Assembly (NCBI GenBank): GCA_031549985.1 | Contig: JAVBOZ010000106.1 | Location: 1-59,623 of the forward strand | Reading direction: 5' to 3' | DNA from: Oscillospiraceae bacterium | GTDB lineage: Bacteria > Bacillota > Clostridia > Oscillospirales > Acutalibacteraceae | Length of the DNA stretch: 59,623 bases | Part shown: positions 15,186 to 43,088 of the stretch, one piece after another | Numbering within the stretch: position 1 is the first letter of the stretch | How the letters are laid out: each line of letters opens with the position of its first letter | Notes under the pieces: model-generated | Told to the model about the DNA's origin: nothing | The model's input: only the letters and a program-made list of their open reading frames with translations | Databases searched by the model: none | Translations under genes and position numbers: made by a program

Positions 15186-15213
15186 TCATGCAGCCTCCTT
15201 GTAGTTACACCAT

Positions 15214-15352
15214 CGTTGAAAAACCGGCACGGTTTTTCTCAATAGGGTAACCGATTCGTTTGACGCTATTATACCATAGATCAAGCGCCGGATTCTGAAA
15301 AACCGGCAGGTTTTTCCCAACGCGCCATACGACCCGTATGGCGCTATTATAC
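15214..15352 (-). repeat. Two copies of a promoter-like plus hairpin cassette, directly upstream of kdpD
   Basis: Read on the minus strand, each unit has TGGTATAAT (extended -10). This is followed by a short hairpin (CCATAC..GTATGG or CAAACG..CG-TT) and the hairpin GAAAAACC(G)tgcCGGTTTTTC. The same family occurs at 40531-40770 and 41040-41138. Confidence 0.7.
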
Positions 15353-15469
15353 CATATTCTTAATCATCAGGGAATTATGATTTTCATAATTGTATTAAGA
15401 TTTCATAAAGATTTGTTTTTGTTGATGAGCTATGGCGCAGCTATAATTTGTGATAGGCGGATCCCTATG

Positions 15470-31010: not shown

Positions 31011-32351
31011 TCACCGAAGCCCGTTTTGCCCCATCATCTGCGCCATCGCGCTGCGCTTGCCGCCCTTGCCGTTCATCTGCTTAAACATCTTCTGCATCTG
31101 CTTATATTGGTTCAGCAGCCGGTTGACGTCCTCCACCTGCTGCCCCGCGCCGGCGGCGATGCGCTTTTTACGCGAGGGGTTGATGATATCGGGGCTCCGC
31201 CGTTCGCCGGGGGTCATCGAAAGAATCAGCGCCTGCACCCGGTCAAACTGCTTTTCGTCAATGTCGACATCGCGCAGCTGTTTGCCCAGCCCGGGCAGCA
31301 TACCCAAAATATCCTTCATGTTCCCAAGGCGGCGGATCTGCCGAAACTGATCCAACAGGTCGTTGAGGTCAAACTTGTTTTTGAGGAGCTTTTCCTCCAT
31401 CTCGGCGGCCTTTTTTTCATCCAAAACGGCCTCGGCTTTCTCAATCAGCGAAAGCACGTCGCCCATGCCAAGAATCCGGCTTGCCATGCGCTCGGGGTGA
31501 AAGATATCCAGGTCCCCCAGCTTTTCGCCCGTGCCGACGAACTTGATCGGCTTGCCCGTCACCGCCCGCGCCGAAAGCGCCGCGCCGCCGCGTGTGTCGC
31601 TGTCGGTCTTGGTCAGCACCAGGCCGTCGATGCCCAGCGCCTCGTTGAAGCTCGTGGCCACGTTTACGGCGTCCTGCCCCGTCATGGCGTCCACGACCAG
31701 CAGGATTTCCTGCGGGCGCACCGCCACCTTGATATTCTTCAGCTCCGTCATCAACGCCTCGTCGATGTGCAAGCGCCCGGCGGTGTCGAGAAAAAGATAG
31801 TCGAAGCCCTGATCACGCGCGTGGTTCAGCGCCTGTTTGGCAATCTCCACCGGGTCGATCTGCCCCAGCGTGAAGACCGGCACGCCGATCTTTGCGCCCA
31901 ATACCTCCAACTGCTGAATGGCTGCCGGACGGTAGATATCGCAGGCCGCCAGCAGCGGGCGGTGCCCCTGGTTCTTAAGCCAAAGGGCGATCTTTGCGCT
32001 GTGCGTGGTCTTACCGGAACCCTGCAGGCCGCACATCATCACCACCGTCGGCCCTTTGGAAGCCTGGGTCAGGCGCGACTGCGTACCACCCATCAGGGCG
32101 ATCAGCTCTTCGTTGACGATTTTAACGACCATCTGCGCGGGGGTGAGGCTTTCCATCACCTGCGCGCCGATGGCGCGTTCAGTAACCTGCGCTGTAAAAT
32201 CCCTGGCAACTTTATAGTTGACGTCAGCCTCCAGCAAGGCCATGCGCACCTCGCGCATCGCGTCGCGCACATCTTTTTCCGTCAGGCTGCCCTTGCTGCG
32301 CAAGCGCTTGAACGCCGCCTCAAGACGGTCAGAAAGGCCTTCGAACGCCAC
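31011..32351 (-). CDS. ffh: Signal recognition particle protein Ffh
   Basis: 446 aa with a GTG start after GGGGTGA. P-loop [20 protein letters not shown], and a Met-rich M domain. Confidence 0.97.
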
Positions 32352-32861: not shown

Positions 32862-32983
32862 CGCAGATCCCCCTCCTCCGCAGCCTGTAAAGGCGTTTAT
32901 CTTTACACCTCGGCGCGCTTATGCATTATACAGCATTCGCCCGCCCCTGTCAAGCCCAAAAAACGGCGATTTTTCGCTTGAAA

Positions 32984-34778: not shown

Positions 34779-35078
34779 CTAGTTCCGTCTTGTTTTGTTC
34801 AATCCCCTGAATTCTTCCACCAACCCCGCCAGCAAAATGACCTGTTCATCCGTCAGCTCAGTGACGTCCATGCTCTTTGCGCGCTCCACGCCAAGGAGCC
34901 AATCCACCGATACGGAAAACTCCAGGGCAATCTTTATAAGCATCTCCAGCGAAGGCATGCGCATTTGTGATTCATAGGCTGAAATGATGGATTTGCGCAT
35001 TCCCAAGCGTTGCGCGAACGCCGTTTGCGTTAACCCCCGATCAACACGCAGTTTTTTGACCTTGTCACCAAATTCCAC
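34779..35078 (-). CDS. XRE-family helix-turn-helix transcriptional regulator
   Basis: 99 aa with a GTG start after AAAGGAGG. The segment LRVDRGLTQTAFAQRLGMRKSIISAYES is a typical Cro/C1-type HTH. Confidence 0.8.
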   Translation of the reverse strand: MEFGDKVKKLRVDRGLTQTAFAQRLGMRKSIISAYESQMRMPSLEMLIKIALEFSVSVDWLLGVERAKSMDVTELTDEQVILLAGLVEEFRGLNKTRRN

Positions 35079-35125
35079 GCAACCGCCTCCTTTATTGTAT
35101 TATACAAGGCGTGCGACTTCTTTTG

Positions 35126-35166
35126 GTGGAATTATTCTTTACATTTGTGGAATATCATGCTATAAT
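35126..35166 (+). promoter_or_regulatory. Strong promoter with flanking direct repeats (candidate XRE operator) for the Cys-rich ORF
   Basis: TTTACA (35138-35143), a 17-bp spacer, then TATAAT (35161-35166). The direct repeats GTGGAATTAT (35126-35135) and GTGGAATAT (35147-35155) bracket the -35. A divergent TATAAT for the XRE gene lies at 35104-35099 (minus strand). Confidence 0.6.
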
Positions 35167-35207
35167 GTTACAGATGATTGTATGATTTTGTTCTATGAGG
35201 TGCGCTT

Positions 35208-35393
35208 ATGCATAAGATGCCAGAAGACAACCGCCGTCGGCACTGCCATGAAAATGAGGGCTGCTGCGACGAATGTGACTACCTGATCTGCTGCACAAAT
35301 TTCAACGGGCTTTGCGACCGATGTTTTGAGGAGAATAATCTGTGCCCCGAAATTGAGAAAAAGCCCGGCGTGATCATTGCCACACCGGGTTAA
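35208..35393 (+). CDS. Cysteine-rich small protein (61 aa, 10 Cys), unknown function
   Basis: RBS GAGGTG lies 5 nt before the ATG. The sequence contains HCHENEGCCDECDYLICCTNFNGLCDRCFEENNLCPE. I recognised no family. Confidence 0.55.
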   Translation: MHKMPEDNRRRHCHENEGCCDECDYLICCTNFNGLCDRCFEENNLCPEIEKKPGVIIATPG

Positions 35394-39663: not shown

Positions 39664-40509
39664 TTAAGCCTCCTCCATTATCACGTATGGCCTGACGGCG
39701 CTGCCGTCGCCGCCAAAGCACAAAATCGCAGCCTTGCGCAGGCGCAACGCGGGGCAAACCCCGTTCATCCCATCTGTGGCGATGGATTTATAGAACGTTC
39801 CCTTTCCGGTGACGGAGGCGACGCTGCATGCGTTCGTCGCGATGGCGTCACGCGTCCAATACCAGCCGCTGCCGCGCAAAAAAAGATAGGGCGAGTTTTC
39901 CCGGGAAACGGCGGCGGCGGTGGGGGCGCGTCTGCGCTCAGGCGCTGAAAGCACCTTGAGCTGCGTGCGCGTGGGCAAAAAGACCGCGTCGCCTTGCGAA
40001 GTATCCAGCAGCGCCCTGAGCTTCGGCGGAAAGTTTTCCGAATGCAGAAAGCCCGGCTCGTGCGCATAGGGGTTGCGGCCTTCCCAGACTCTTGATTTTT
40101 CGGGCGCTGAACCGCGCCAGGGCACCGCCGCCCTGGTGCTGTTGAGCCACTGCCGCAAGGCGCTGTCTTCCCAAGCCGAAGAGCCCGCCGCCGGGTCATC
40201 GCAGGCCGCGAAGGCTTTGAAGCAGAGAATATGCTCGGCAAGCAGCAGGGGGCGTCCGTCTTCCATCGCCAGCACGCGCCAGAGAATGGGTTCCCCCGCG
40301 TATTGGCCAAAGAAGAGGTAATCGCCCCGCCGCAGTTGAACCTGGGCGGGTTCATCGACGCCCATCTCAGGCACGGGGTACTGCGCGCCGAACATCGCGT
40401 TGCCCAAAGCGGCCTTGAGAGGTGTTCGGCCCGCGCAAAGCACAAAGAAGGCTATGATCAAGGCAGCGACGCAAAGCGCCGGCCTGCGCAGGTGCGGTTG
40501 ATGTGGCAC
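39664..40509 (-). CDS. Secreted protein, DUF6273-like
   Basis: 281 aa with a GTG start after GAGGGGAGGTG and a signal/TM segment. FFGQYAGEPILWRVL...LLLAEHIL...WEDSALRQWLNS matches the pattern I associate with DUF6273-type domains. Confidence 0.7.
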   Translation of the reverse strand: MPHQPHLRRPALCVAALIIAFFVLCAGRTPLKAALGNAMFGAQYPVPEMGVDEPAQVQLRRGDYLFFGQYAGEPILWRVLAMEDGRPLLLAEHILCFKAFAACDDPAAGSSAWEDSALRQWLNSTRAAVPWRGSAPEKSRVWEGRNPYAHEPGFLHSENFPPKLRALLDTSQGDAVFLPTRTQLKVLSAPERRRAPTAAAVSRENSPYLFLRGSGWYWTRDAIATNACSVASVTGKGTFYKSIATDGMNGVCPALRLRKAAILCFGGDGSAVRPYVIMEEA

Positions 40510-40530
40510 GTAGGCACCTCCCCTCTTATA

Positions 40531-40770
40531 TTTGCGCTATATTAGCATAGATCAAGGCTGGATAATGCGGCAAACGACCCGTTTGACGCTATTGTAACAT
40601 AGATCAAGGCGCGATTCTGAAAAACCGGCACGGTTTTTCCCAATGCGGCAAACGACCCGTTTGACGCTATTGCGTCATAGATCAAGGCGCGATTCTGAAA
40701 AACCGGCACGGTTTTTCCCAATGCGGCAAACGACCCGTTTGACGCTATTATCGCTTTGCAAAAAATATCA
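40531..40770 (-). repeat. Tandem array of the promoter-like plus two-hairpin cassette (two full 78-bp units plus partial units)
   Basis: ATGCGGCAAACGACCCGTTTGACGCTATT recurs at 40565, 40643 and 40721 (exact 78-bp period). The units contain the hairpins CAAACGaccCGTTTG and GAAAAACCGgcaCGGTTTTTC. On the minus strand each carries CTTGATCTATGnnAnAAT (-10-like). Confidence 0.85.
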
Positions 40771-40783
40771 ACGCGCTGCCCCC

Positions 40784-40812
40784 TTGACAAATACCTCAGC
40801 GTGTGCTAAGAT
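40784..40812 (+). promoter_or_regulatory. Near-consensus sigma-A promoter with no downstream ORF
   Basis: TTGACA (40784-40789), a 17-bp spacer, then TAAGAT (40807-40812). It is embedded in the 12-bp inverted repeat GCCCCCTTGACA / TGTCAAGGGGGC (40778-40789 / 40818-40829). Confidence 0.6.
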
Positions 40813-40818
40813 AAGGGT

Positions 40819-40922
40819 GTCAAGGGGGCGCTGTGGCGTTGCCGAGACGGCAGTTCTCATTACGTTGTTAAGAACTAACCGCTCACGAGTTGCTAGCAGT
40901 GGAGCGGTTAGTTCTTTTTATT
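40819..40922 (+). ncRNA. Candidate ~100-nt small RNA (antisense/antitoxin-like)
   Basis: It is bounded by the promoter at 40784-40812 and an intrinsic terminator. The terminator has the 15-bp stem AAGAACTAACCGCTC/GAGCGGTTAGTTCTT (40870-40884 / 40902-40916) followed by TTTATT. There is no plausible ORF. Its 3' end overlaps the stop region of the convergent 26-codon ORF. Confidence 0.45.
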
Positions 40923-40988
40923 GGACTCGTAGAAAAGAATTGCCATCGCTAAGTACACGAATGCCATAGCAAGCAAGATTTCCAGCAT
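40908..40988 (-). CDS. 26-aa hydrophobic peptide (candidate type I toxin)
   Basis: AAAGGAGGTGA lies 7 nt before the ATG at 40988. The product is MLEILLAMAFVYLAMAILFYESNKKN. The stop TAA (40910-40908) lies inside the terminator stem of the convergent RNA. Confidence 0.5.
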   Translation of the reverse strand: MLEILLAMAFVYLAMAILFYESNKKN

Positions 40989-41039
40989 AGCCTCACCTCC
41001 TTTCGGAGGAAAACCACCGCCCGGCAAGCAACCAAACGC

Positions 41040-41138
41040 CATGGTTATTATAGCAAAGATCAAGTGCAAAATCAAGAGAAACTGACAAGTTTTTCCCAAT
41101 GCAACAACGACCCGTTTGACGTTATATTAGCATATTGC
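41040..41138 (-). repeat. Degenerate copy of the promoter-plus-hairpin cassette
   Basis: TTTTTCCCAATGCAACAACGACCCGTTTGACGTTATATTAGCATA matches the 40.5-40.8 kb units, with a decayed second hairpin. Confidence 0.7.
41047..41075 (-). promoter_or_regulatory. Sigma-A promoter for the 26-aa peptide mRNA
   Basis: On the minus strand: TTGATT (41075-41070), a 17-bp spacer, then TATAAT (41052-41047). The -10 context CTTGATCTTTGCTATAAT belongs to the repeated cassette family. Confidence 0.6.
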
Positions 41139-41252
41139 TTCTTTCGGGTCAAGTCTTTGCTTTGCCCGCCCTGAAAATAAACGTGGATTTTTCCGCGCAA
41201 ACATGATATGATACATGAGGCAAAAAATTATGCATACGGAGGGGTTCTGATT

Positions 41253-43088
41253 GTGAGACGGTTCAAGCGCATTCTTTCTCTGGTGCTGGCGGTTGCGTTA
41301 TGCGTGGGGTCGCTGGCGGCATCGGCGGCGGCGAAGGGGAGCGACAGCGCGTTCGGGGGCAGCACCGCTCCCGTTGTCCTCATTCACGGCAATACCCAGT
41401 CGGACGTCTATCTTTACCAGGCGGACAACGTAACCCGAGTGCTCGACGCCGACGGCAACCCCGTTAAAAACTGGATGCCAAAAGTGGATGTCCCGGCTAT
41501 GCTGCTGCAGCTCATCGGCCCGCTGCTTTTGAGCGTCGTGTTCCAGTGCGATTTCGGCCTGACCGGGGCGGTCAGGAATGTGGTCAGCGGCGCGATGCCG
41601 CTGCTGAAAATGGACGCAAACGGCATGCCCGCAAATAACATGCGCGTGCAAAGCTATGCGGACGCCAAGGGCAACCCGCTGAGCCTTGCCGAATGCTCAA
41701 AGGAGATGCGCGACATCGCCAACGAGCGTCTGCATATGGACGAGCGCGACCAGCGCCTCGGCGACGACAGGGTCTATTTCTTCGCTTACGATTCCTTCGG
41801 CAACAATGCGGTCAACACAAAGGCTCTGGCGGAATATATCAAAAGCGTCAGCAAAAAGCACGGTGGCTCAAAGGTCAGCGTTGTGCCCATTTCGCTGGGC
41901 GGCACGCTGATGAACAGCCTGATGGAGGACTATTACGACGAGGTGGTTCCCCTGTTGCAAAACGTCGTCTTCGTCGTGCCCGCAGCGGACGGAACCAATC
42001 TGGTGGGCGACGTTTACATGCGCAAACTCAGCGTGGATAACAAAAACCTCTATCACGACATGTTCCCGGCGCTGCTGGGGGCGTTCCCCGGCGCGCTGCC
42101 GGGCTGGATGCAATACCTGATCAACGCGGTCATCCGCGTCTTGCCCAAGCGGGTGCTGCACGGAATGCTCGACGCCGTGGTGGACGGCCTTGTGGGCGAA
42201 TACCTTTCCCGCAACACGACGCTGTGGTCGCTGGTGCCTTCCGGATCATACGAGACCGCGCGCGAAATCTGGCTCAAGGGCGACAGCTATGCCGCCATCC
42301 GGGCGCAGACCGACCACTACTACCAGGCGCAAAAGAACAGCCGCGCCAACATTCTGCGCATGCGCGCGGACGGCGTAAGGGTCTACGACATCTGCGAATA
42401 TGACACGCCACTGATCGCGATCGCCAGCTCTTACACGAAAGTCAATTCCGACAGCGTGATCCACCTGGATTCCGCTTCGCTGGGCGCGACGGCCGGCTAT
42501 GTCAATACCCCGCTCCCGAAAGGCTATCGGCCCGTCAACCCGCGCTGCACCGACCCCGCGCACAACCACAGGTCCCCCAACGGCGTCGTCGATGCCTCCA
42601 CCGGCACGCTTCCCGAACAGACCTGGTATTTCAAGGGCGGGTTGCATAACCTGACCAGCGACAATGACCTTGCCATGCGCCTGATCATTCGGCTGGTCAC
42701 CTCGGGCGAATACGAAACCGTCTATTCGATGGACGCATGGCCGCAGTTCAACAACGCACGTGAAAGCCGTGCGTTCCGCGTTGAAATCCTGCCGCAGGCC
42801 GAGGCAGTCGACCCCGCCACCCTTGCCGCCGCAGACGCCAAGGAACTGGCCGCCGCCATCGCCGAAGCCAGAGCCGTGCTGGCCAAGACCGTCGACGTGC
42901 CCGGTGAATACAGCCACGCGTATGACCGCGTCGTGGCCATCCTGGTCAAGCTGGGCCTGCGCGAAGCCGAAAAGCCCGATTACGCCGCCATGGTGCTCGA
43001 CCCGCTCTTCGCTCTCCTCAGCGATTTGCTTTATTGCACCGTCGGCCCGCGCGGGTTTTTTGATCCGTTTTGGGCGAAGTGGCAATAG
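41253..43088 (+). CDS. Secreted alpha/beta-hydrolase (lipase/esterase-like)
   Basis: GTG start at 41253 after GGAGGGG, with a signal peptide. VVLIHGN (oxyanion region) and VVPISLGG (GXSXG-like nucleophile elbow). About 611 aa. Confidence 0.7.
   Translation: MRRFKRILSLVLAVALCVGSLAASAAAKGSDSAFGGSTAPVVLIHGNTQSDVYLYQADNVTRVLDADGNPVKNWMPKVDVPAMLLQLIGPLLLSVVFQCDFGLTGAVRNVVSGAMPLLKMDANGMPANNMRVQSYADAKGNPLSLAECSKEMRDIANERLHMDERDQRLGDDRVYFFAYDSFGNNAVNTKALAEYIKSVSKKHGGSKVSVVPISLGGTLMNSLMEDYYDEVVPLLQNVVFVVPAADGTNLVGDVYMRKLSVDNKNLYHDMFPALLGAFPGALPGWMQYLINAVIRVLPKRVLHGMLDAVVDGLVGEYLSRNTTLWSLVPSGSYETAREIWLKGDSYAAIRAQTDHYYQAQKNSRANILRMRADGVRVYDICEYDTPLIAIASSYTKVNSDSVIHLDSASLGATAGYVNTPLPKGYRPVNPRCTDPAHNHRSPNGVVDASTGTLPEQTWYFKGGLHNLTSDNDLAMRLIIRLVTSGEYETVYSMDAWPQFNNARESRAFRVEILPQAEAVDPATLAAADAKELAAAIAEARAVLAKTVDVPGEYSHAYDRVVAILVKLGLREAEKPDYAAMVLDPLFALLSDLLYCTVGPRGFFDPFWAKWQ

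What the first reader, a model, noticed from the sequence alone, without database searches (positions are those of the whole stretch)
40778..41075. Candidate type I toxin-antitoxin-like module: 26-aa hydrophobic peptide with a sequestered SD, plus a convergent promoter-to-terminator sRNA overlapping its 3' end
Seen directly in the sequence:
1. On the minus strand there is a near-consensus promoter: TTGATT (41075-41070), a 17-bp spacer, then TATAAT (41052-41047).
2. It is followed by a leader of about 50 nt. In it the SD GGAGG (41000-40996) can pair with an upstream CCUCC (41009-41005) across a GAAA tetraloop.
3. An ATG at 40988, 7 nt after the SD, opens a 26-codon ORF: MLEILLAMAFVYLAMAILFYESNKKN. 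That is one TM-length helix plus a polar/basic tail.
4. On the plus strand, convergent with the ORF, lies a second near-consensus promoter: TTGACA, 17 bp, TAAGAT (40784-40812). No ORF follows it. It ends at a 15-bp perfect stem (40870-40884 / 40902-40916) with a TTTATT tail, which predicts an RNA of about 100 nt.
5. The last codons and the stop of the peptide ORF (40908-40922) lie inside that terminator. The two transcripts must therefore be complementary at their 3' ends.
6. A 12-bp inverted repeat, GCCCCCTTGACA / TGTCAAGGGGGC, brackets the sRNA promoter.

Established knowledge: this architecture is the hallmark of Gram-positive type I TA loci such as fst/RNAII, txpA/RatA, bsrG/SR4 and sprA1/SprA1AS. 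Its elements are a small membrane peptide, SD occlusion in the toxin mRNA and a 3'-overlapping antisense RNA that shares a terminator.

Inference: this is an unannotated, possibly new type I TA family. I recognise no similarity to those known peptides. It sits in an accessory stretch and is fused to a repeated promoter cassette.
Basis: partly seen in the sequence, partly recalled or inferred. Interest (0 to 1): 0.75.

Follow-up and report, generated by a model that had tools for sequence, protein, structure and literature searches.

The report
Unannotated type I toxin–antitoxin module
A tiny unannotated gene for a 26-residue membrane peptide, faced by a small antisense RNA gene, forms a toxin–antitoxin-type module built like the Bacillus txpA/bsrG systems; it is real and conserved, but it is a new member of a known kind.

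Summary
The ORF has the best Shine-Dalgarno (SD) site of the whole 59.6-kb window, a 12-nt perfect match. The two convergent promoters are 2 of only 7 sites of that quality.

The type I toxin–antitoxin (TA) reading is supported by comparison.
- Two homologues in a JGI metagenome encode 26-aa peptides in the same register (MLEYLLAIAFVLIC[LV]AIVLH[TM]ANKKR). They differ by 8 synonymous and 2 nonsynonymous codon changes.
- They keep the promoter, the stem over the stop codon, the 3' box, the inverted repeat and the convergent promoter.
- The leader/SD-hairpin motif recurs in more than 140 loci of Oscillospirales genomes and phage contigs. It is followed by 25–31-aa ORFs in 125 of 149 cases.
- Some of these loci are recognised members of Pfam Hol_Tox and Rfam BsrG.
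- A covariance model built from the pattern-independent 3' halves of 14 such loci picks this locus as its best hit in the window (33 bits).

The predicted mRNA fold matches the probed bsrG mRNA: a 5'–3' helix, an SD hairpin, a stop-codon stem and a 3' hairpin. The roughly 103-nt antisense RNA lies wholly inside the toxin's 3' UTR.

The peptide and the RNAs match no Pfam or Rfam family. Transcription and toxicity are untested.

The parts
41047..41075 (-). Promoter of the peptide (toxin) mRNA: TTGATT-17-TATAAT with a TG extension. The inferred start is near G41040.
   Evidence: 10/12, TG. GTTGATTTT and TATAAT are conserved in homologues L147 and L148. It is one of 7 sites of this quality in the window. 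The start site is inferred.
41010..41041 (-). 5' leader, which forms the 5' arm of the long-range helix P1.
   Evidence: RNAduplex with 40858-40826 gives 28 pairs, 6 of them G.U, at -40.7 kcal/mol, against -26.0 on the opposite strand. This is the 1st percentile against natural segments of the window. The equivalent pairing is found in 97/103 and 18/22 related modules.
40993..41009 (-). SD hairpin: CCUCC-GAAA-GGAGG. The SD GAAAGGAGGUGA (41004-40993) is a 12-nt perfect complement of the 16S rRNA 3' end.
   Evidence: The motif recurs in front of 25-31-aa ORFs in 125 of 149 cases elsewhere.
40908..40988 (-). 26-codon ORF plus TAA: MLEILLAMAFVYLAMAILFYESNKKN. It has one hydrophobic helix-length stretch (I4-Y20) and a polar/basic tail.
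   Evidence: Homologous 26-aa ORFs occur in L147 and L148 with 8 synonymous against 2 nonsynonymous changes.
40870..40916 (.). Perfect 15-bp stem with a 17-nt loop. On the minus strand it is the stem-loop holding the stop codon (SL3). On the plus strand it is the intrinsic terminator of the antisense RNA, whose U tract (40917-40924) is the complement of the Asn/Lys codons.
   Evidence: (I2). TAACCGCTC..GAGCGGTTA is conserved in L147 and L148. TAACCGCC..GGCGGTTA occurs in class-2 relatives. It is the core of covariance model R1, which hits 40931-40844 at 33 bits.
40826..40858 (-). 3' arm of helix P1, in the toxin 3' UTR. On the plus strand it is the 5' part of the antisense RNA.
   Evidence: It starts 49 nt after the stop, and the family mode is 42-57 nt (16 of 22 class-2 loci). 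CGGCAACG..GCGCCCCC is conserved in L147 and L148.
40778..40829 (-). 3' hairpin of the toxin mRNA, formed by the 12-bp inverted repeat GCCCCCUUGACA / UGUCAAGGGGGC. It is directly adjacent to P1, in the position of bsrG SL4. A U run follows 13 nt later (40764-40759).
   Evidence: I6. The hairpin is in the MFE fold. CCCCCTTG.A / TTGTCAAGGGGG is conserved in L147 and L148. Its role as a terminator or stabiliser is inferred.
40784..40812 (+). Promoter of the antisense RNA: TTGACA-17-TAAGAT with a TG extension. It is embedded in the hairpin above, with the -35 in one arm and the -10 in the loop.
   Evidence: A convergent TTGACA-17-TATAAT sits at the equivalent place in L147 and L148. It is also present in 100/103 and 19/22 related modules.
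40819..40922 (+). Predicted antisense (antitoxin) RNA of about 103 nt. It has no ORF with an SD and is fully complementary to the toxin mRNA from the last 5 codons to the 3' arm of P1.
   Evidence: The ends are inferred from the promoter and terminator. Fold -40.8 kcal/mol, z = -3.25. No Rfam family matches.

Best explanation
This is a chromosomal type I toxin–antitoxin-type module of the txpA/bsrG design.

Toxin mRNA. The minus strand gives an mRNA of about 270 nt, from about 41040 to about 40770.
- Its first 32 nt pair with its own 3' UTR (helix P1), closing the molecule.
- Its very strong SD is held in a short GC hairpin with a GAAA loop.
- It encodes a 26-residue single-helix membrane peptide with a polar/basic tail.
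- The stop codon lies in a 15-bp stem-loop.
- The RNA ends in a hairpin formed by the 12-bp inverted repeat.

Antisense RNA. A convergent promoter inside that last hairpin gives an antisense RNA of about 103 nt (40819 to about 40922). Its terminator is the complement of the stop-codon stem. It is therefore fully complementary to the toxin 3' UTR.

Mechanism, inferred from bsrG/SR4 and txpA/RatA.
- The two RNAs first touch through the complementary 17-nt loops. A duplex of about 100 bp then forms and is cut by RNase III, so the mRNA decays.
- Removing the 3' arm of P1 frees leader nt ~20-31. These are predicted to lengthen the SD hairpin from 4 to more than 12 pairs and to cover the AUG.
- When the antisense RNA is lost, the peptide would be made and would damage the membrane.

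Shown here: the sequence features, their conservation, purifying selection on the peptide, and relatedness of the scaffold to recognised BsrG/Hol_Tox loci.
Inferred: transcript ends, RNA pairing in vivo, RNase III cleavage and toxicity.
For: - Features and statistics in the window.
- True homologues: L147 and L148 have a 26-aa ORF in the same register, with 8 synonymous against 2 nonsynonymous changes. They conserve the promoter, stop stem, 3' box, inverted repeat and convergent promoter.
- Recurrence of the leader motif: CCTCCGAAAGGAGGTGA + ATG in 22 phage contigs, 21 followed by 26-34-aa ORFs. GGCGGT..CCTCCGAAAGGAGGTGA in at least 117 genome loci, mostly Oscillospirales. ORFs are 25-31 aa in 125 of 149 cases.
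- Pattern-independent features of those modules: a convergent promoter in 100/103 and 19/22, and leader-3'UTR pairing with z < -2 in 97/103 and 18/22. The pairing is stronger on the toxin-sense strand in 92 against 7 and in 16 against 5.
- Link to known families: peptides of several such loci are Pfam Hol_Tox at 25.8-39.4 bits, cut-off 23.3. L061 hits Rfam BsrG at 82.5 bits; L108 and L089 hit it weakly. An E. faecalis plasmid locus with the same plan hits RatA at 58.4 bits.
- Covariance model R1, built from the 3' halves of 14 modules without the window, has its best window hit at 40931-40844(-): 33.0 bits, E = 1.2e-5. L147 scores 24.8 bits and L148 19.8 bits.
- The fold matches the probed bsrG mRNA (PMC3834814) and the B. 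subtilis rules in PMC6562991: RBS held in 4-5 GC pairs, SD of 11-12 nt, and 100-140 bp of 3' overlap. The hairpin extension when the antisense target is blocked is predicted.
Against: - There are no expression data of any kind.
- The peptide matches no toxin family (Pfam, NCBIfam, PHROG). The RNAs match no Rfam family even at E = 10.
- Only two homologues of this particular peptide were found, both from one metagenome.
- The P1 energy is only in the 1st percentile against natural segments of this GC-rich window.
- The toxin mRNA has no canonical terminator; the U run starts 13 nt after the 3' hairpin.
- The antisense -10 is TAAGAT.
- Some peptides of this kind are not detectably toxic, for example YhzE-2 in PMC2887945.
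- Similarity of the leader and hairpin to the fetched loci is by construction of the search pattern.
Confidence: 0.8

Rival explanations
1. It is a regulated small membrane protein rather than a toxin. The transcripts and the antisense control are the same, but the 26-aa peptide has a non-lethal role, for example modulating a membrane protein or serving a mobile-element function. The antisense RNA simply tunes its level.
For: - The architecture alone cannot show toxicity.
- YhzE-2 was not toxic in its native host, and TxpA is host-specific (PMC2887945).
- BsrE and BsrH are toxic only on overexpression (PMC6562991).
- The window copy is not in a prophage.
Against: Double locking of translation (P1, SD hairpin and a fully overlapping antisense RNA) is typical of genes whose product must be kept off. 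The same scaffold carries recognised Hol_Tox toxins. Modules are multi-copy and phage-borne.
Confidence: 0.13
2. It is a leader peptide or upstream regulatory element of the co-oriented DUF6273/DUF6056 operon (40509 and downstream on the minus strand). The stems would act as attenuators.
For: The orientation is the same as the downstream genes. No canonical terminator lies between the ORF and the 281-aa gene.
Against: Homologues L147 and L148 sit in front of an unrelated gene (MFARVNS...). Related modules occur in many contexts, in tandem and on phage contigs. Three promoter-like cassette units lie between the module and the operon. A convergent near-consensus promoter is conserved.
Confidence: 0.04
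3. It is a non-coding palindromic repeat or miniature mobile element whose inverted repeats and promoter-like boxes create a chance ORF.
For: The locus is embedded in an array of repeated cassettes. The leader and 3' box are in effect a 32-nt imperfect inverted repeat.
Against: - The 12-nt perfect SD with an ATG at 7 nt is unique in the window.
- ORF length and register are conserved, with a synonymous excess.
- G.U pairs make the helix strand-specific, -40.7 against -26.0 kcal/mol.
- There is only one copy in the window.
Confidence: 0.03

Closest known systems
bsrG/SR4 of Bacillus subtilis prophage SPbeta (Rfam BsrG RF01412)
   Same: - Helix P1: in the probed bsrG mRNA, 5' nt 1-35 pair with 3' nt 232-262. 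Here it is 41041-41010 with 40858-40826.
- The SD sits in a 4-bp GC stem on top of P1.
- The stop codon is in the 5' part of a stem-loop.
- A hairpin directly follows P1.
- The antisense RNA pairs with the 3' part, with first contact between its terminator loop and the stop-codon loop. Binding frees the 5' arm and lengthens the SD helix (PMC3834814). The same refolding is predicted here.
- Pattern-related loci L061, L108 and L089 hit RF01412.
   Different: - The window RNA does not hit RF01412 at E = 10.
- The peptide is 26 aa against 38 aa and has no detectable sequence similarity.
- The antisense RNA is about 103 nt against 180 nt. Its promoter lies inside the toxin's 3' hairpin rather than beyond it.
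- No canonical terminator tail is present.
txpA/RatA (B. subtilis skin element; Enterococcus faecalis homologues; Pfam Hol_Tox PF16935, Rfam RatA RF01776)
   Same: - The antisense RNA overlaps the 3' UTR.
- The SD has about 12 nt of complementarity to the 16S rRNA and is sequestered (PMC6562991, PMC3834814).
- The E. faecalis pESC1 locus L145 shows the same plan by eye: leader/3' box pairing, SD hairpin, TAA inside a stem after poly-Lys codons, and a convergent promoter.
- EF3263 has an antisense RNA of about 110 nt (PMC2887945).
   Different: - The window peptide does not match PF16935.
- The plus-strand RNA does not match RF01776.
- Model R1 scores L145 at only 13.4 bits.
- TxpA is 59 aa.
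bsrE/SR5 and bsrH/as-bsrH (B. subtilis)
   Same: Toxins of 29-30 aa with one helix and a K/R tail. They have 3'-overlapping antisense RNAs and a sequestered RBS (PMC6562991). Class-2 relatives such as MSVYEALVLMIAFAVLMLKLIDYIDKRK are Hol_Tox members on the same leader motif.
   Different: The window peptide lacks the MS.[YF]E start and has no profile match. These loci were not compared at the DNA level here.
hok/Sok (and aapA1/IsoA1) fold-back-inhibited toxin mRNAs
   Same: 5'-3' end pairing keeps the full-length mRNA closed (PMC3834814 discussion).
   Different: In those systems the antisense RNA binds the 5' leader and activation needs 3' trimming. Here the antisense RNA covers the 3' UTR. 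There is no sequence relation.
fst/RNAII (par of pAD1) and Clostridioides difficile type I TA modules
   Same: A small hydrophobic peptide with a charged tail and convergent antisense transcription. Many copies lie in prophages (PMC6563280).
   Different: par uses 5' direct repeats plus a shared bidirectional terminator. The C. difficile toxins are 34-59 aa. No similarity was found here to either.

Membership tests
Type I toxin–antitoxin system (general definition) | Small (<60 aa) hydrophobic peptide ORF with its own ribosome-binding site | tested here: met
   A 26-aa ORF with a 17-residue apolar stretch and a 12-nt perfect SD at 7 nt. It is conserved, with a synonymous excess, in L147 and L148.
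Type I toxin–antitoxin system (general definition) | Cis-encoded antisense RNA complementary to the toxin mRNA | tested here: inconclusive
   A promoter and terminator for a ~103-nt RNA are present and conserved in homologues and in 119 of 125 related modules. The transcript itself cannot be observed with these tools.
Type I toxin–antitoxin system (general definition) | The peptide is toxic on overexpression and the antisense RNA neutralises it | not testable with these tools
   This needs expression experiments.
TxpA/BsrG–BsrE/BsrH toxins (Pfam Hol_Tox PF16935) | The peptide matches the family profile at or above the gathering score (23.3 bits) | tested here: not met
   No PF16935 hit for the window peptide at E up to 10. 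Peptides from loci with the same leader motif score 25.8, 34.6 and 39.4 bits.
Rfam BsrG (RF01412), RatA (RF01776), rli28 (RF01492) | The RNA matches the covariance model | tested here: not met
   No hit in the window at the gathering score or at E = 10, nor in L148. Positive controls: L145 hits RatA at 58.4 bits and rli28 at 142.7 bits; L061 hits BsrG at 82.5 bits.
bsrG-type toxin mRNA architecture (PMC3834814) | 5'-3' helix P1 enclosing the SD stem-loop, the ORF and the stop-codon stem-loop, with a hairpin directly after P1 | tested here: met
   Met by prediction only: the MFE is -121 kcal/mol with exactly this layout. P1 is strand-specific and at the family-typical position. P1 is at the 1st percentile against natural sequence. 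No structure probing has been done.
bsrG-type toxin mRNA architecture (PMC6562991) | The antisense RNA overlaps the toxin 3' region by about 100-140 bp | tested here: met
   The predicted overlap is about 103 bp, 40819-40922. It depends on the inferred transcript ends.
Oscillospirales/phage modules with the GGCGGT..CCUCC-GAAA-GGAGGUGA leader (defined here) | The pattern-independent 3' half (Lys codons, TAA, CCGC stem, ACCG[TC] box) matches a model built without the window | tested here: met
   Model R1 has its best hit of the whole window at 40931-40844(-), 33.0 bits, E = 1.2e-5 (rough calibration), matching the full model length.
fst/RNAII (par) family | Toxin and antitoxin RNAs share a bidirectional terminator and pair through 5' direct repeats | tested here: not met
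   The stem has a U tract only on the plus strand. No direct repeats link the two RNAs. The peptide gives no hit to an Fst profile.

The most novel reading that the evidence does not exclude
The unit that is conserved and spreads is the RNA scaffold, not the peptide. The scaffold consists of the P1 helix, the SD hairpin, the stop-codon stem that doubles as the antisense terminator, and the convergent promoter.

The same scaffold carries unrelated cargo peptides:
- recognised Hol_Tox helices;
- several unclassified helix peptides, including the MLE..NKK type of this window;
- a dominant non-membrane-like family, M[PR]ITLT[FL]HIG.FTVTI.VK..NRH[SP][AG][KR].

On this reading, the window peptide founds a new toxin family of uncultured Oscillospirales. 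The scaffold is a general 'keep-off' expression device whose cargo has been exchanged repeatedly.
Probability: 0.35. Interest if true: 0.6.

Novelty: new member of a known kind. Interest (0 to 1): 0.4.

Why it matters
- It adds an unannotated gene pair to a genome of a rarely sampled organism. The organism itself was not identified; its flanking proteins occur in only two sequencing runs.
- Neither the peptide nor its relatives are in a 15-billion-protein collection, because gene callers skip ORFs this short.
- The bsrG/txpA design, studied almost only in Bacillus and Enterococcus, turns out to be abundant in Oscillospirales and their phages.
- The work yields a simple DNA signature and a covariance model to find such modules.
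- Such modules matter for prophage and genome-island stability, for stress responses, and as portable RNA switches.
- For this locus alone the gain is modest: one more type I TA module with a divergent peptide.

Tried and rejected
- The 63-aa extended ORF gave no homologue in the 5.8-billion protein database. Its upstream part is the leader read as protein; a viral 'relative' (L146) matched only that part and is spurious.
- blastn of the locus against plasmids and phages found nothing.
- The 626-aa neighbouring protein had no relative in genome contigs. Contigs carrying the neighbouring proteins come from two runs only and break at the repeats, so synteny could not be used.
- The 26-aa peptide was too short for the search for related loci. 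The 31-aa class-1 peptide was too short for the search for homologous proteins.
- The stop-stem pattern gave one unrelated hit in viral contigs.
- RNAalifold on the three homologues misaligned the leaders, so P1 is not in that consensus. It did recover the stop-codon stem and the terminal hairpin.
- An early reading of two 'compensatory' P1 changes between the window and L148 depended on the alignment register. I withdrew it; in the RNAduplex register the changes are one-sided (C-G to U-G and similar).
- Perfect-stem detection missed most class-1 stop stems because they contain bulges.
- The leader-peptide, non-coding-repeat and shared-bidirectional-terminator readings were rejected for the reasons given under the rival explanations.
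Full report
**The observation**

Reading 40500-41400 confirms each element at the stated coordinates.
- The scan tool reports the two best promoter-like sites of the region as TTGATT-17-TATAAT on the minus strand (41075-41047) and TTGACA-17-TAAGAT on the plus strand (40784-40812). Both score 10/12 with a TG extension.
- Over the whole window only 7 sites reach that quality.
- The repeat finder gives the perfect 15-bp stem 40870-40884 / 40902-40916 and the perfect 12-bp inverted repeat 40778-40789 / 40818-40829.
- The ORF 40988-40908 encodes MLEILLAMAFVYLAMAILFYESNKKN.
- Its Shine-Dalgarno (SD) site GAAAGGAGGTGA is a 12-nt perfect match to the anti-SD complement. The next best site in 59.6 kb has 8 nt.
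- Both strands fold better than shuffles, with z = -3.25 and -2.9. The CCUCC-GAAA-GGAGG hairpin is part of the minimum-free-energy fold.

**Surroundings**

The neighbours are ordinary chromosomal genes. They are DUF6273 and DUF6056 proteins on the minus strand, an unclassified 626-aa protein, and YdjC, PHP, GH130-phosphoglucomutase and KdpD. This is not a prophage.

The module sits inside an array of a repeated intergenic cassette. The organism was not identified and is rarely sampled. The neighbouring proteins occur in two sequencing runs only, on short contigs that break at the repeats. The 626-aa protein has no relative among 185,579 species representatives.

Rfam gives nothing for the window. 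The locus has no blastn match in plasmids or phages.

**A recurring leader motif**

Searching phage contigs for the SD hairpin plus start codon (CCTCCGAAAGGAGGTGA, 2-8 nt, ATG) gave 22 loci. In 21 of them the ATG opens an ORF of 26-34 codons.

A second pattern added the leader box GGCGGT. Nearly all titles shown are Oscillospiraceae, Oscillibacter, Faecalibacterium, Acutalibacteraceae and relatives, often with several copies per genome. Of the 149 hairpins, 125 are followed by ORFs of 25-31 codons.

Two peptide classes appear.
- Class 1, the dominant one: M[PR]ITLT[FL]HIG.FTVTI.VK..NRH[SP][AG][KR].
- Class 2: one hydrophobic helix plus a K/R tail, as in the window.

Similarity of the leader and hairpin is by construction of the patterns. 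I therefore measured only features that the patterns do not contain.
- A convergent promoter of at least 9/12, usually 11-12/12, lies 30-230 nt after the stop in 100 of 103 class-1 and 19 of 22 class-2 modules. In the window its -10 ends 95 nt after the stop.
- The 32 nt before the hairpin pair with the 3' UTR better than with shuffles (z < -2) in 97 of 103 and 18 of 22 modules.
- In class 2 the partner starts 42-57 nt after the stop in 16 of 22 loci. In the window it starts at 49 nt.
- The pairing is stronger on the ORF-sense strand in 92 against 7 and in 16 against 5 cases. This is what G.U pairs produce if selection acts on that RNA.
- By eye, class-2 loci place the TAA stop and the preceding Lys codons in or just before a stem (TAACCGCC..GGCGGTTA). 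The U tail of the antisense terminator is therefore the complement of the Lys codons, exactly as in the window.

**Link to known families**
- Several class-2 peptides are members of Pfam Hol_Tox (PF16935), the TxpA 'holin-like toxin' family. They score 25.8, 34.6 and 39.4 bits against a cut-off of 23.3 (PMC2887945).
- Locus L061 hits Rfam BsrG at 82.5 bits over the full model. L108 scores 33.3 bits and L089 25.9 bits.
- An E. faecalis plasmid locus annotated 'putative holin-like toxin' has the same plan by eye. It hits Rfam RatA (58.4 bits), rli28 and BsrG.
- The window peptide and RNAs hit none of these models.

As a formal test free of the search pattern, I built a covariance model. It used only the 3' halves (stop-24 to stop+80) of 14 class-2 modules and excluded the window.
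- Its best hit in the whole window is 40931-40844 on the minus strand: 33.0 bits, E = 1.2e-5, full model length.
- It also finds L147 (24.8 bits) and L148 (19.8 bits).

**True homologues of this peptide**

A metagenome scan with the extended ORF found two loci in JGI metagenome Ga0123353. They encode MLEYLLAIAFVLICLAIVLHTANKKR and MLEYLLAIAFVLICVAIVLHMANKKR. Both are 26 aa with start and stop in the same register as the window.
- The two differ by 8 synonymous and 2 nonsynonymous codon changes. Differences at codon positions 1/2/3 are 3/1/7.
- Against the window there are 12 replacements, mostly hydrophobic for hydrophobic, with MLE, AFV, AI and NKK kept.
- The alignment shows conserved GTTGATTTT and TATAAT promoter boxes and the leader start GGCGTTG.
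- It also shows the stop stem TAACCGCTC..GTGAGCGGTTAG and the 3' box CGGCAACG..GCGCCCCC.
- The inverted repeat CCCCCTTG.A / TTGTCAAGGGGG is kept too, around a convergent TTGACA-17-TATAAT.
- Leader-3'UTR pairing is kept in all three: -40.0, -44.7 and -40.6 kcal/mol, against -24.6, -32.6 and -31.5 on the other strand.
- In the two homologues the SD is masked by an upstream CUCUUCCC element instead of the GAAA hairpin.
- They lie in front of a different gene, so the module is self-contained.

**Structure and mechanism**

The minus-strand RNA from 41040 to 40770 folds at -121 kcal/mol.
- Helix P1 joins 41041-41010 to 40858-40826.
- A 4-5-bp SD hairpin sits on top of it.
- The 15-bp stem-loop contains the stop codon.
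- A terminal hairpin, made by the 12-bp inverted repeat, lies directly next to P1.

This is the layout found by structure probing of bsrG mRNA (PMC3834814). There, nt 1-35 pair with nt 232-262, the SD sits in a 4-bp stem, the stop codon is in the 5' part of SL3, and the terminator lies one nucleotide after P1.

It also fits the B. subtilis rules in PMC6562991. The ribosome-binding site is sequestered in 4-5 GC pairs, txpA and yonT have SD sites with 11-12 nt of complementarity, and antitoxins pair with 100-140 bp of the toxin 3' end.

The plus-strand RNA (40819 to about 40922) lies entirely within the toxin 3' UTR. When its target is blocked in the fold, the leader is predicted to fold back and lengthen the SD helix over the AUG. 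This parallels the SR4-induced change from 4 to 8 bp in bsrG.

The antisense promoter is built into it.

**Caveats**
- Nothing here shows transcription, translation or toxicity.
- P1 in the window is only at the 1st percentile when the leader is tested against all natural 145-nt segments of this GC-rich window (mean -31.4, sd 4.3, observed -40.7). Its weight comes from its position, strand bias and conservation.
- The family counts are not phylogenetically independent.
- E-values from my model are rough.
- The toxin mRNA lacks a canonical terminator tail.

**Verdict**

The finding is real and the type I TA interpretation is supported. It is a new member, with a divergent peptide outside current profiles, of the known txpA/bsrG kind. 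It is not a new kind of system.

Noticed in passing
window 40535-40750, 41085-41134 and 15210-15360: A repeated intergenic cassette occurs as about three 78-nt tandem units, a partial copy, and two units upstream of the kdpD-like gene. On the minus strand each unit has three parts:
- CTTGATCTATGnTAnAAT, which resembles a TG-extended -10;
- a CAAACGGGTCGTTTG hairpin;
- a GAAAAACCGTGCCGGTTTTTC palindrome.
It has no Rfam hit and is absent from all 148 fetched loci. Short-read contigs break at it. The TA module lies inside this array. Its promoter spacer (41064-41054) matches the cassette motif 10/11 in the same register, although homologues lack that spacer. This is unexplained.
   Followed up: partly
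loci L006-L144 (e.g. L006 7816-7899 on the - strand, L059, L096, L136): The same RNA scaffold most often carries a different peptide of 25-32 aa that does not look membrane-like: M[PR]ITLT[FL]HIG.FTVTI.VK..NRH[SP][AG][KR].
- There are more than 70 distinct DNA versions in Oscillospirales genomes and 15 phage contigs.
- Close pairs show 708 synonymous against 242 nonsynonymous single-base codon differences.
- It has no Pfam, NCBIfam or PHROG match.
- It is absent from the text of the searched papers.
- Its sequences are almost entirely absent from the 15-billion-protein collection.
It may be an undescribed toxin family.
   Followed up: partly
L039, L049, L062, L077, L082, L121, L124, L127: Modules of this scaffold often occur as tandem pairs about 280-440 nt apart, and several times per genome. 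Examples are the SIG562 and CAYZOU assemblies.
   Followed up: no
L147 3016-3096 and L148 3025-3105: The two homologues of the window peptide mask their SD with an upstream CUCUUCCC / CUCCUUCC element about 20 nt away, instead of the tight GAAA hairpin. SD masking is therefore kept while the means differ. Both lie just upstream of a gene starting MFARVNSMGCYG.
   Followed up: partly
window 34779-35393: A 99-aa XRE-type helix-turn-helix ORF (34779-35078, minus strand, AAAGGAGG SD) is divergent from an 11/12 promoter at 35138 (plus strand). That promoter precedes a 61-aa cysteine-rich ORF at 35208-35393: MHKMPEDNRRRHCHENEGCCDECDYLICCTNFNGLCDRCFEENNLCPEIEKKPGVIIATPG.
   Followed up: no
window 32925-32953 (- strand): This is the only 12/12 consensus promoter of the window (TTGACA-17-TATAAT). 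It lies about 570 nt upstream of the next long minus-strand ORF, which starts at 32351. No Rfam family was found in between.
   Followed up: no
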